A stretch of DNA of 64,000 nt from Sphagnum compactum (Eukaryota), in NCBI GenBank assembly GCA_965153455.1, contig OZ234493.1, positions 33,532,213 to 33,596,212 on the forward strand, read 5' to 3'. Below are positions 25,887 through 60,675 of the stretch, one piece after another (the stretch's first letter is position 1; each line of letters begins with the position of its first letter). The notes below the pieces were generated by a model. That model worked only from the letters and a program-made list of their open reading frames with translations. It was not told the origin of the DNA and did not search any database. The position numbers were made by a program, and so were the translations under genes.

Positions 25887-26251
25887 TGTCAAACAGATTG
25901 CTTCAGCCGTATGCGGGGAAATTTGCATGTATGGTTTAGAGGGAAGCTTGAGGGGGTCTATTTATCTTAAAAAATATAACAATATTTTATCATGGGTTCA
26001 AATTCCTCCATAGGAGACGTAGTTCAATTGGTAGAGCGCATGTTTTGCAAGCATGAAGCTGTCAGTTCAAATTCGATTGTCTCCAAATAAACGAATAATC
26101 TGCTATGAGAAAAACAGCATAAGTGTTTGGATGAATGATGATAACATCTGCGAGATATTTCGTTATGCTTTGCACTTGAACAACTTGGCTTCAGGAAAGC
26201 CAATCCAAAAATCAGAATGGGAGATTAATTTATCTATAGATTTTCTATGTT
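25887..26251 (+). other. NUMT-like insertion: group II intron domain V/VI, degenerate tRNA 3' exon and trnA
   Basis: AGCCGTATGCGGGGAAATTTGCATGTATGGTT (about 25905-25936) is a group II intron domain V (AGC triad, GAAA tetraloop), followed by tRNA-like sequence and trnA. The block is flanked by the direct repeat GAGTTGACA (25878-25886, 26252-26260). Confidence 0.75.
26013..26085 (+). pseudogene. trnA: Decayed organellar (mitochondrial-type) tRNA-Ala(UGC) in a nuclear insertion
   Basis: 73-nt cloverleaf GGAGACG..TGTCTCC-A, anticodon loop TTTGCAA, T-loop TTCAAAT. Stem defects are C>T/G>A-type transitions, and the Ala identity pair G3:U70 reads A3:U70. Confidence 0.8.
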
Positions 26252-58277: not shown

Positions 58278-59630
58278 GGTGCCAATGAAGTAATGTGCTG
58301 CTGCTATTTTGGTGAAGGCAAGACTGGAGCATCTGGAGAACTCCAAAGTGGAAAAAGACATAATAGCAAATGGCATGTGATTTGTGATTCTGATGTTGTA
58401 GGTGTTATGAGATATTTGTGGTTGAAGACATTATTAAATCTTTTTTTTTTAATGTGAAGGGGATTCCCCTTACTTCACAAAGAAACTGTGGGTTGAGTGG
58501 ATTATAACTTTGTGTTCTATTTTTCACCTTCGCTTCTTCAGCTGGTGTAAGTCTTTTGCATAGAATTGAGATTTCATTAGCTATTATCTTCTAGCTGCAT
58601 GCAATTCATCATGATATCAATTGCAGGGATCGCAGGGCTATTGTTGGCAATCAACTCTTTGTGGAAGAGAGTAAAACAGGATCAGTGTCTTGTAAGCCAA
58701 TGGAACATAAGAATGTGAAACCATCAAGAAGAGTGTCTTCAGAAATGTCACAGAAGTATGTTTAATTTCCATCCCCATTTGGTCTAGTTTTCCTCTGTAG
58801 GCAGTTTCTCTTTGTTACATGTCCCTTTTGTATGTCTTTTGTTTTCCCCCCTAGTATATTTCTCCTCGTTTTCTTTGCTGCTAGCTAGCCAGTATAATGA
58901 CTGGGTTTTCGCGTTATTTCCAGACTTGCTGCTGCAACTTAGTTTGTAGAAGGGAAAGTTGTGATAGAGAAGTTCTTATCATACATTTTAACTGTTGAGC
59001 GGCCATTGAATAAGTGGACAGATTTGTCAATGCTTTGAAGATTGGAAGGTAATATATCAACGAGGATTGTTGTACACTATCAGTCAGCTTTTTCTACATA
59101 GATTGTTGCAGGTCCTTAGAAAGTTAATAAATTATATCATTTTCTCAGAACTTTGCACTTTTCTCCATCAATTTACAGTCCACTATTCGTTATTTAATTT
59201 TTGGTTACAATTTTCAAATATTGACACTGGAAACAATTTTCTGAGCTGTTTCTCACAAGAAAAATGTCAATCTGTTCGAGTTGCATTTGTGAAAGTCGAA
59301 TTGAAAAAGGTTGCTGTGGTTTCGGGTTTAGCGGATATGTGTCTTAATGTCCCTTAACGGACGTTTAGTATATAAGGTTTGCAATCCAACAAAACTGACA
59401 AGTTCACTTGCTAGAGAATTCAGATGCTAAAACTGGTGAATTTCAATTCCTAGAGATTCGAATTGAAGCACAATCTGATCTTTGCTTAAAAACTTGATAA
59501 AACTTTGTATACCTTCCTACTTCTCAAGTTCCTCAGTATCCTTTTAAGAGTAACCATTTTCCAGAAACGATCACAACATTGTTGTCAGGGTTTACTTTTC
59601 ATGGAGCTCGGAAGTCAATTTTTATTCAGC

Positions 59631-59717
59631 ATGGCATCAGTTTGTCAGAGGTGAAAAAACAATTGCAACATTTGTGTAATTCAGTGTGTAGAATAAGATT
59701 CAATCATCACTTGCCAT
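59631..59717 (-). ncRNA. Box C/D snoRNA, snoR16-like, double guide
   Basis: 9-bp terminal stem AGCAUGGCA/UGCCAUGCU (59720-59712 / 59636-59628), box C GUGAUGA, D' CUGA (59684-59681) preceded by CUUAUUCUACAC (antisense to 25S GUGUAGAAUAAG), box D CUGA (59640-59637) preceded by UUUCACCUCUGACAA (antisense to 18S UUGUCAGAGGUGAAA). It lies next to U43, as I recall snoR16 does in angiosperm clusters. Confidence 0.88.
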
Positions 59718-59767
59718 GCTAAAGGACCCACAATAAAATGGGACCCAGATACCCAGCAGAGAGCATG

Positions 59768-59868
59768 ATCTTTCAGAGATGTCAACGGCATTAGTGCCGA
59801 GAACTGTGTACAGACATTCAACATGGCATCAGTTCAGTCCGCCCGTCTGCATTTTGTCATCATCAAGT
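59768..59868 (-). ncRNA. U43: Box C/D snoRNA U43 (SNORD43/snR70 homolog)
   Basis: Minus strand: box C AUGAUGA (59863-59857), guide GACGGGCGG, D' CUGA (59837-59834), box D CUGA (59776-59773), short terminal stem. The guide pairs with universal 18S CCGCCCGUC, and the +5 rule gives the C equivalent to yeast Cm1639 / E. coli C1402. Confidence 0.9.
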
Positions 59869-59885
59869 CCGAGCTCTCCAACTTA

Positions 59886-60024: not shown

Positions 60025-60181
60025 ACAGTACAAGAAAAATTTCAAGAAGCAACGAAGGCTGTCATGGAAACCACGAGAGAGAGAGAGACCATCGATCGAG
60101 AGTGAACCATTCCAAATCCTTTGACTGGGAGAAACAGATGACTGAAATTGAAGTGTGCTCATCTTAAGGTTTTATTTCGCA

Positions 60182-60346
60182 ATATGTCAACAGCCCATCG
60201 TACCGATCTCGGAGAGCATAAAACCGATACCGGCATAGCGAGGGCTGCATAGAGACGGGCGTTTCCTAGGCGCCCGAATCCAGCACTCTTGCTTCAGGGA
60301 ACGGACCCACTGGTACTGCACGACACAGCGATCAGTTTATGAAGCA
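60182..60346 (-). ncRNA. Box H/ACA snoRNA, E3/SNORA63-like
   Basis: 5' hairpin closed by UGCUUCA/UGAAGCA, H-like AGAGUG, an extra hinge hairpin CGGGCG/CGCCCG, 3' hairpin CAGCCC/GGGCUG with pocket UCGCUAU / ACG, ACA 14 nt below the pocket top and 3 nt from the end. The pocket fits 25S CGU[U]C-AUAGCGA. Confidence 0.78.
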
Positions 60347-60459
60347 TTTCACTGTCCAAAACAACTTGTTGAAGTCTAGCTAAAGCAAAAGAACGAATAG
60401 AAAACAAATCGCAGATTACGAAGACAAAATGATCACAGATATGCAGATGCTGAAGTGAA

Positions 60460-60675
60460 GAGGACTTATAAGCGGCGCAGCTCTGAACTTATATGACGAA
60501 GGGTTTGGGTGAAAGGGGCGGCACCAAACCCTAACCCTAATCCCATCGCCGCAACCCTGGAATTGGCTATACCTGGGATCCGGCCGTTGCGCGAGTTTCA
60601 GCTTGGCGCCCAAAGACGAGTTCGACGTTCGTAAAAATCCGACGAGCCGCGCCACAGTTATTGAAGGTGGGCCAG
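60460..60675 (-). promoter_or_regulatory. Putative Pol II promoter of the snoRNA cluster (TATA + teloboxes + site II)
   Basis: TATA-like elements at 60465-60472 and 60488-60495, overlapping teloboxes AAACCCTAA/AACCCTAA at 60526-60540, site II TGGGCC at 60668-60673. This combination is typical of plant ribosome-biogenesis and snoRNA genes. Confidence 0.6.

What the first reader, a model, noticed from the sequence alone, without database searches (positions are those of the whole stretch)
59631..59717. snoR16-like RNA carries a 15-nt box D guide to 18S rRNA, predicting a possibly lineage-specific 2'-O-methylation
Seen: the D' guide CUUAUUCUACAC and the D guide UUUCACCUCUGACAA. From recalled rRNA sequence, the first pairs with 25S GUGUAGAAUAAG (snoR16-type site). 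The second pairs fully with 18S UUGUCAGAGGUGAAA in the helix 23 region, and the +5 rule predicts Um at the U of UUG[U]CAG. I recall angiosperm snoR16 using its second guide on 25S, and I know of no yeast or human Nm at this 18S position. Inference: guide re-targeting and a new Nm site, or a chaperone interaction.
Basis: partly seen in the sequence, partly recalled or inferred. Interest (0 to 1): 0.7.

Follow-up and report, generated by a model that had tools for sequence, protein, structure and literature searches.

The report
Moss snoR16 with a switched guide
A small nucleolar guide RNA in a probable moss keeps one of its two flowering-plant targets but has swapped the other for a site in 18S ribosomal RNA that is unmethylated in the plants and yeast mapped so far, so it predicts an untested lineage-specific ribosome mark.

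Summary
On the minus strand at 59719-59629 lies a canonical 91-nt box C/D snoRNA: an 8-bp terminal stem, box C UGAUGA, D' CUGA, a degenerate C', and D CUGA. It is the snoR16 orthologue. Rfam gives 42.7 bits against a cut-off of 45, and two relatives' copies score 46.2 and 45.7. It sits beside a U43 homologue, as in Arabidopsis.

The D' guide is conserved and pairs 12 bp with plant 25S at the Arabidopsis Um2456-type site. The D guide is not the flowering-plant one, which targets 25S Um48. It pairs 13 bp with every 18S gene fetched, and 15 bp where the 18S reads TT before GTCAGAGG. The +5 rule places Um at about U899-901 in flowering-plant numbering.

No Nm is mapped there in Arabidopsis, tomato, tobacco or yeast. 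Both guides are invariant in three related metagenome copies, with 3 of 91 columns varying against 178 of 651 in the flanks. Strand-consistent polyA reads cover the whole gene cluster.

Not shown: the species' own 18S, the mature RNA, the methylation itself, and which D guide is ancestral. Verdict: a real new variant of a known family, of moderate interest.

The parts
59629..59719 (-). snoR16-like box C/D snoRNA, 91 nt including the 8-bp terminal stem (59719-59712 pairs with 59636-59629)
   Evidence: Sequence. Rfam snoR16 full-length match at 42.7 bits, E 5.1e-5. The fold shows only the terminal stem. 3 of 91 alignment columns vary among three sequences.
59704..59709 (-). box C, UGAUGA
   Evidence: invariant in alignment A1, including the Rfam-type loci
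59685..59697 (-). D' guide CUUAUUCUACAC(A). It pairs 12 bp with 25S GUGUAGAAUAAG, and guide nt 5 (59689) faces the U
   Evidence: duplex -16.6 kcal/mol. 0 of 13 columns vary. Arabidopsis snoR16-1 is assigned 25S Um2456.
59681..59684 (-). box D', CUGA
59665..59670 (-). degenerate box C', UGUUGC here and UGUUGA in all relatives
   Evidence: (59665 G>T in X16, X9, X13)
59641..59656 (-). D guide UUUCACCUCUGACAA(A), complementary to 18S (UU)GUCAGAGGUGAAA. Guide nt 5 (59645) faces the predicted Um
   Evidence: -22.8 kcal/mol for 13 bp, -24.6 for 15 bp. 0 of 17 columns vary. No difference is listed here in three relatives' contigs.
59637..59640 (-). box D, CUGA
59759..59878 (-). U43-like box C/D snoRNA upstream in the same transcript. 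Box C is at 59865-59860, the D' guide GCAGACGGGCGGA at 59850-59838, D' at 59837-59834, D at 59776-59773, and an outer stem GAGAGC/GCUCUC
   Evidence: A 53-nt block is 92-94% identical to the snoRNA lying next to snoR16 in the four Rfam-type loci. 6 of 116 columns vary. Arabidopsis U43 guides 18S Cm1645. Rfam does not call it.
60183..60345 (-). conserved structured island, possibly an H/ACA snoRNA, first in the transcript
   Evidence: 4 of 164 columns vary. Highest polyA depth, about 10. Fold -61.6 kcal/mol, z -2.28. No Rfam match and no clean H box, so the identity is open.
60465..60533 (-). promoter region: TAGGGTTT at 60533-60526, AAACCCTT at 60506-60499, TATAAG at 60493-60488 and 60470-60465
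   Evidence: Sequence. 5 of 150 columns vary over 60620-60471. RNA reads begin in bin 60426-60463. That such telo-box motifs mark plant snoRNA and ribosomal-protein promoters is recalled, not tested.
59621..59626 (-). AAUAAA just after the snoRNA. polyA-library reads stop near 59600
   Evidence: The motif is not conserved in the relatives, so this is weak.

Best explanation
This is the orthologue of flowering-plant snoR16 in a non-seed plant, probably a moss. It is transcribed with a U43 homologue, and perhaps an H/ACA RNA, as one unspliced polycistronic precursor from a TATA/telo-box promoter, and is then trimmed to a roughly 90-nt box C/D snoRNP.

Its D' guide keeps the family's 25S site, the Arabidopsis Um2456 type. 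Its D guide, read by the strong terminal C/D motif, pairs 13-15 bp with the 5' strand of 18S helix 23. It directs fibrillarin to 2'-O-methylate the U of G[U]CAGAGG, at about U899-901 in flowering-plant numbering. Flowering-plant snoR16 instead uses its D guide on 25S Um48.

Shown: the anatomy, homology, linkage, complementarity, conservation of both guides, and precursor transcription on the right strand. Inferred: snoRNP assembly, the methylation itself, and the organism's own 18S sequence.
For: Anatomy: all box C/D elements are canonical and correctly spaced.

Homology:
- The Rfam snoR16 match is full-length at 42.7 bits, and the next family scores 25.5.
- Relatives' copies L069 and L070 score 46.2 and 45.7, above the cut-off of 45. 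The Rfam-type loci score 73.5-74.8.
- In alignment A1 the stem, box C, D' guide (12 of 13), D', D and the 3' stem are shared, and only the D-guide half differs.

Linkage: a U43 homologue is adjacent in both the moss-type and the Rfam-type loci. Arabidopsis has snoR16.1-U43.1 and snoR160/snoR16-2/AtU43-2 clusters.

Targets:
- The D guide has a single strong rRNA site, with a duplex of -22.8 to -24.6 kcal/mol.
- The paired 13-mer lies inside a published conserved 18S primer, and 52 of 53 contigs fetched with that primer are 18S-like.

Selection:
- 3 of 91 columns vary, against 178 of 651 in the spacers and flank (Fisher p = 1.5e-8). Variation is 0 of 13 and 0 of 17 in the two guides.
- In the listed part of the read table, 37 places differ in 59435-59627 and only 2 in 59628-59726, both in the central spacer.

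Transcription: 26 of 26 laid polyA reads have the first mate on +, which means a minus-strand RNA in the usual stranded library. They run from about 60463 to about 59600 with no joints.
Against: - The organism's 18S and 25S were not seen, so the two outer A-U pairs are unverified.
- Depth over the snoRNA itself is only about 1 read, from about 12% of one polyA run. No small-RNA data show a mature 90-nt species.
- The metatranscriptome contigs also cover the promoter, so they may be DNA and do not count as expression.
- The relatives are close (85-91% identical in flanks), so conservation is shallow in time.
- The window copy is under Rfam's cut-off, and its C' box is weaker than in the relatives.
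- Prediction alone is unreliable in plants: 212 sites were annotated in Arabidopsis but up to 117 were mapped.
- No methylation data exist for any plant other than Arabidopsis, tomato and tobacco.
Confidence: 0.65

Rival explanations
1. The D element is a real, selected antisense element that pairs with pre-18S helix 23 without methylating it. It would act as a folding or assembly chaperone, or as extra pairing that helps another event. The snoRNA would then methylate only 25S.
For: The 13-15 bp duplex is long and would hold open the 5' strand of helix 23 up to the loop. No Nm is mapped at this place in any organism I could check. Box C/D snoRNAs with non-methylation roles are known, for example the acetylation guides seen only as a listing.
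Against: The element abuts a perfect box D with the canonical one-nucleotide offset, and a U sits exactly at +5. That is the geometry of a methylation guide. Known chaperone or acetylation guides use other, often bipartite, layouts (recalled). Nothing here tests assembly.
Confidence: 0.15
2. The D guide is a decayed or orphan element and the 18S match is fortuitous. The RNA would work only through D', or be a pseudogene.
For: Arabidopsis AtsnoR16-2 has lost one of the two assigned targets, so guides in this family do decay. The window copy is below the Rfam cut-off.
Against: The chance expectation for the match is 8e-5 to 5e-6. 0 of 17 D-guide columns vary while flanks vary at 27%. The boxes and stem are intact and the locus is transcribed.
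Confidence: 0.05
3. It is a methylation guide, but for another RNA (snRNA, tRNA or mRNA) that shares the 13-15-mer, not for 18S.
For: Only rRNA was scanned, and part of the 25S was missing from the scan. snoRNA targets outside rRNA exist (Arabidopsis snRNA table).
Against: The complement lies in one of the most conserved stretches of 18S, which is used as a universal primer. 18S is the most abundant nucleolar substrate, so a second target would add to this one rather than replace it.
Confidence: 0.05

Closest known systems
Arabidopsis AtsnoR16-1 / Rfam RF00296 snoR16
   Same: Box C/D layout, terminal stem GGCAAG...UGCC, and D' guide to the 25S Um2456-type site (12 of 13 guide letters shared). 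It lies next to U43 in a polycistronic cluster.
   Different: Its D guide is CUCCGCUUAUUAU, to 25S Um48. Here the D guide is UUUCACCUCUGACAA, to 18S helix 23. The gene order is also reversed: U43 then snoR16 here, snoR16 then U43 in the four Rfam-type loci. The window copy scores 42.7 bits against 73.5-74.8.
Arabidopsis AtsnoR16-2
   Same: A snoR16 paralogue that has changed its target set, in a cluster with an H/ACA RNA: snoR160/snoR16-2/AtU43-2.
   Different: It keeps Um48 of 25S and has no assigned D' target, which is the opposite half to the one kept here.
U43 / SNORD43 family (18S Cm1645 in Arabidopsis, equivalent to E. coli Cm1402)
   Same: The neighbouring RNA at 59878-59759 shares the guide block GCAGACGGGCGGA-CUGA and the following 30 nt with the snoRNA beside snoR16 in the Rfam-type loci.
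   Different: This is the neighbour, not the finding. Its second (D) guide also differs between the moss-type and Rfam-type loci, and I found no convincing rRNA target for it.

Membership tests
box C/D snoRNA (class) | Box C RUGAUGA near the 5' end and box D CUGA near the 3' end, brought together by a terminal stem | tested here: met
   GUGAUGA at 59710-59704, CUGA at 59640-59637, and an 8-bp stem
box C/D snoRNA (class) | An antisense element of 10 or more nt directly upstream of D and/or D', with the target nucleotide opposite position 5 | tested here: met
   12 bp (D') and 13-15 bp (D) against fetched rRNA genes, with a U at +5 in both
box C/D snoRNA (class) | Assembly with fibrillarin, NOP56, NOP58 and the L7Ae-type protein; nucleolar, stable, about 70-120 nt RNA | not testable with these tools
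   Only a polyA precursor was seen
snoR16 (Rfam RF00296) | Score at or above the curated gathering cut-off of 45 bits | tested here: inconclusive
   The window copy scores 42.7, below the cut-off. The near-identical relatives L069 and L070 score 46.2 and 45.7, above it.
snoR16 (Rfam RF00296) | D' guide to 25S Um2456 (Arabidopsis numbering) | tested here: met
   12-bp match to GTGTAGAATAAG in plant LSU fragment L126. A U lies 34 nt upstream, which fits the Um2422/Um2456 spacing.
snoR16 (Rfam RF00296) | D guide to 25S Um48 | tested here: not met
   The D guide has no match to the 25S 5' end. No CCGCTTATT-type guide occurs anywhere in the window or in L067, L069 or L070.
snoR16 (Rfam RF00296) | Genomic linkage with U43 | tested here: met
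   A U43 homologue lies 40 nt upstream. The Rfam-type loci have it about 100 nt downstream of snoR16's 3' end, roughly 175 nt start to start. Arabidopsis and rice clusters are described.

The most novel reading that the evidence does not exclude
The swapped D element is more than a methylation guide. By holding 13-15 nt of the 5' strand of 18S helix 23, up to its loop, it times the folding of the platform/E-site helix during early 40S assembly in bryophytes. Methylation would be secondary or absent. This would be a lineage-specific dual-function snoRNA born inside an ancient U43-snoR16 cluster.
Probability: 0.1. Interest if true: 0.6.

Novelty: new variant of a known kind. Interest (0 to 1): 0.35.

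Why it matters
If the site is methylated, it adds a 2'-O-methyl in the stem of 18S helix 23. This helix forms part of the E-site platform, and human rRNA carries a pseudouridine in it (U966). No Nm is mapped in this stretch in Arabidopsis, tomato, tobacco or yeast.

It would be one of the first concrete predictions for a bryophyte ribosome. A 2024 review states that no plant other than Arabidopsis has been profiled by sequencing.

It also moves the origin of snoR16 and of the U43-snoR16 cluster back to the common ancestor of mosses and flowering plants. A 2016 survey traced snoR16 only to the flowering-plant ancestor and did not list it among the seven C/D families conserved in land plants.

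It is a clean example of one guide evolving while the other guide, the boxes and the gene neighbourhood stay fixed. The limits are that guide turnover and lineage-specific sites are expected features of snoRNA evolution, and that nothing here shows a functional consequence.

Tried and rejected
- Own genome: none is held, so the species' rDNA could not be read.
- The 15-mer in viral contigs gave 64 hits, none of them rDNA. This only gives a feel for chance matches.
- Paper search for the guide or target strings returned 141 papers. The 30 listed are PCR-primer or unrelated papers, none on snoRNAs.
- Searches for a bryophyte Nm map or snoRNA catalogue found none in main texts. One search found no mention of moss, Physcomitrella or Selaginella in the 2016 survey's text.
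- PMC4344503 was searched for the yeast site list without success. PMC5199042 gave it.
- PMC8393311 did not give a full human list, so the human claim stays recalled.
- The bacterial promoter/terminator scan is irrelevant to a eukaryote and is ignored.
- The fold z-score of the snoRNA (-0.12) says nothing either way, because C/D snoRNAs are unstructured.
- Metatranscriptome shares of 0.12-0.13 and the X16 contigs are rejected as proof of expression, because the contigs also span the promoter.
- The flowering-plant U43 D guide and the moss U43 D guide gave only weak, G-U-rich rRNA matches, so no target is claimed.
- My recalled equation of Arabidopsis U2456 with yeast U2421 was wrong. The review aligns yeast Um2421 with Arabidopsis Um2422 and lists Um2456 as shared only with tomato.

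Full report
**What is there**

Read on the minus strand, window 59719-59629 is a textbook box C/D snoRNA. Its parts are:
- an 8-bp terminal stem, GCAUGGCA with UGCCAUGC;
- box C, UGAUGA (59709-59704);
- a 12-nt antisense element plus one unpaired A (59697-59685);
- box D', CUGA (59684-59681);
- a degenerate C', UGUUGC (59670-59665);
- a 15-nt antisense element plus one unpaired A (59656-59641);
- box D, CUGA (59640-59637).

The fold shows the terminal stem and little else, as expected for this class.

**What family**

At Rfam's curated cut-offs nothing is called here. With E-value reporting, the best match is snoR16 (RF00296), full length, at 42.7 bits against a cut-off of 45. The E-value is 5.1e-5 in 4.5 kb and 7.2e-4 in the whole window. 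The next family scores 25.5 bits.

One metagenome scan used box C, a gap, then the D' guide and D' box. It returned 7 loci.
- Three loci (L067, L069, L070) are relatives of the window, 85-91% identical over about 1.3 kb. L069 and L070 score 46.2 and 45.7 bits, just above the cut-off.
- Four loci (L065, L066, L068, L071) are classical snoR16. L065 and L066 score 73.5 and 74.8 bits. L067, L068 and L071 were not scanned with Rfam.

In alignment A1 the stem, box C, the D' guide (one C/U difference), D', D and the 3' stem are shared. The half that holds the D guide is not.

**Neighbourhood**

Forty nucleotides upstream, on the same strand, lies a second C/D RNA (59878-59759). A 53-nt block of it, holding the guide GCAGACGGGCGGA followed by CUGA, is 92-94% identical to an RNA beside snoR16 in all four classical loci.

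That guide is the U43 type. Arabidopsis U43 is assigned 18S Cm1645, the equivalent of E. coli Cm1402. Arabidopsis and rice have snoR16-U43 clusters, one of them headed by an H/ACA RNA, snoR160.

Here the order is U43 then snoR16, the reverse of the four classical loci. A third conserved, structured island (60345-60183) comes first in the transcript.

Upstream lie TAGGGTTT and AAACCCTT motifs and two TATAAG boxes. My reading of these as a plant telo-box promoter is recalled, not tested.

**Transcription**

One polyA RNA run carries the same species label as the DNA runs that hold the window. About 12% of it was read, and 26 reads were laid. All 26 have the first mate on the + strand, which in the usual stranded library means a minus-strand RNA.

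Depth runs from the bin 60426-60463 to about 59600. It peaks near 10 over 60122-60273 and falls to about 1 over the snoR16-like RNA. There are no splice joints. This fits an unspliced polycistronic precursor. It does not show the mature snoRNA.

The contigs of a 'moss metagenome' RNA library also cover the promoter, so I do not count them as expression.

**Organism**

Names are coded and no genome is held. The only RNA libraries that hold part of the locus are labelled moss or plant metagenome. The locus is clearly diverged from the classical snoR16 loci. I therefore call it a probable moss. This is an inference.

**Targets**

I had no rRNA from the organism, so I fetched real rRNA genes. The stretch GTCAGAGGTGAAATTCTTGG is a published conserved 18S primer: 18SF3 in PMC4536233 and 892C in PMC6751601 (passages read).

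Of these, 52 are 18S-like.
- The 13 nt GUCAGAGGUGAAA that pair with the D guide, including the predicted target U, lie inside the primer. This makes them present in all 52 by construction.
- The two nucleotides before them are TA in 28 contigs. Of those, 27 are of one type that I recall as flowering-plant 18S. One comes from an assembly titled as a leaf-nodule symbiont.
- They are TT in 14 contigs and something else in 10.

The full 15 bp therefore holds only for TT-type 18S. Whether this organism is TT-type is untested.

In six 18S genes of 1806-1810 nt, the G of GUCAGAGG is at 898-900, so the target U is at 899-901.

Against a flowering-plant-like 18S-5.8S-25S(5') contig and an LSU 3' fragment (identified by Rfam), each snoR16 guide has one clean site:
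- moss D on 18S, 13 bp;
- moss D' on 25S GUGUAGAAUAAG, 12 bp;
- classical D on 25S AAUAAGCGGAG, 11 bp.

About 100 nt of 25S between the two contigs was not covered. Duplex energies are -22.8 kcal/mol (13 bp), -24.6 (15 bp) and -16.6 (D').

**Is the site known?**

- Arabidopsis snoR16-1 is assigned 25S Um2456 and Um48, and snoR16-2 only Um48 (tables read).
- Table 2 of a 2024 review compiles two Arabidopsis RiboMethSeq maps and the tomato and tobacco cryo-EM maps. It lists no 18S Nm between Am812 and Am978.
- The same table lists 25S Um2456 only in Arabidopsis and tomato. It lists Um48 in all three plants and in Ostreococcus.
- The review also says that no other plant has been profiled by sequencing.
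- Yeast has none between Am796 and Am974.
- The main text of PMC8583080 has no U898-U902.
- For human I have only recall. The same helix carries pseudouridine 966.
- Sites in algae, protists and archaea that are not shared with plants were not visible to me, and supplements are closed.

**Selection**

In an alignment of the window with L070 and L069, the variable columns are as follows.

| Region | Variable columns |
|---|---|
| snoR16-like RNA | 3 of 91 |
| D' guide | 0 of 13 |
| D guide | 0 of 17 |
| U43-like RNA | 6 of 116 |
| Upstream structured island | 4 of 164 |
| Promoter | 5 of 150 |
| Two spacers plus downstream flank | 178 of 651 |

The contrast between the snoR16-like RNA and the flanks gives Fisher p = 1.5e-8. 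The three changes in the snoRNA are all in the central spacer, and one of them turns UGUUGC into the better C' box UGUUGA.

Contigs of two other coded organisms and one metatranscriptome agree. In the part of the difference table that was printed (40 rows; 131 not shown), 37 places differ in 59435-59627 and two in 59628-59726, again in the central spacer. The relatives are close, so this shows recent constraint, not deep conservation.

**Reading**

The most likely account is an ordinary methylation guide with a changed second specificity. D' keeps the plant-specific 25S site. D now addresses the U at about 900 in the helix 23 stem of 18S.

I put 0.65 on the whole chain. The homology and reality of the gene are near certain. 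The methylation itself is about 0.7, because many predicted plant sites were not confirmed (212 annotated against up to 117 mapped).

A pairing-only chaperone role gets 0.15, decay or chance 0.05, and another substrate 0.05. The direction of the change, in the moss line or the seed-plant line, is open. So is the question of what guides 25S Um48 in this organism. No Um48-type guide occurs in the window or the three related loci.

**Novelty**

This is a new variant of a known family.

New points:
- a predicted 18S site not mapped in any plant or yeast map I could read;
- evidence that snoR16 and its U43 partnership predate flowering plants. The 2016 survey traced snoR16 only to the flowering-plant ancestor. 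Its species list and alignments are in files I could not open.

Not surprising: guide turnover and lineage-specific Nm sites are common. Interest 0.35.

Noticed in passing
window 59759-59878 (-): A U43-like box C/D snoRNA that Rfam does not call even at E up to 10. A 53-nt core is 92-94% identical to the RNA beside snoR16 in four classical loci. Its D guide differs from theirs and has no convincing rRNA match. The gene order relative to snoR16 is reversed.
   Followed up: partly
window 60183-60345 (-): A strongly conserved island (4 of 164 columns vary). It folds well (-61.6 kcal/mol, z -2.28), has the highest polyA read depth and ends near an ACA. It is possibly an H/ACA snoRNA, like snoR160 in the Arabidopsis cluster, but it has no clean H box and no Rfam match.
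   Followed up: partly
window 60465-60620 (-): A conserved upstream region (5 of 150 columns vary) with TAGGGTTT, AAACCCTT and two TATAAG motifs. RNA reads start just downstream.
   Followed up: partly
window 25902-26085 (+): A group II intron domain (Rfam 43.2 bits) lies 43 nt before a tRNA (Rfam 55.2 bits; ARAGORN calls it tRNA-Ala, anticodon UGC). This looks like an organelle-derived insert in nuclear DNA.
   Followed up: no
window about 60075-60090: A CT/GA dinucleotide run whose length and type vary among relatives. Contigs break here, with loose ends of GA or AC repeats, and one relative lacks 15 nt at 60083.
   Followed up: no
L065, L066, L068, L071 versus L126: The classical snoR16 D' guide has C where the moss guide has U. 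The one plant LSU fragment fetched reads A at the facing position, so the classical guide would mismatch that 25S. This suggests guide and target co-vary among flowering plants.
   Followed up: no
27 are of one flowering-plant-like type. This is contamination in public prokaryote assemblies.
   Followed up: no
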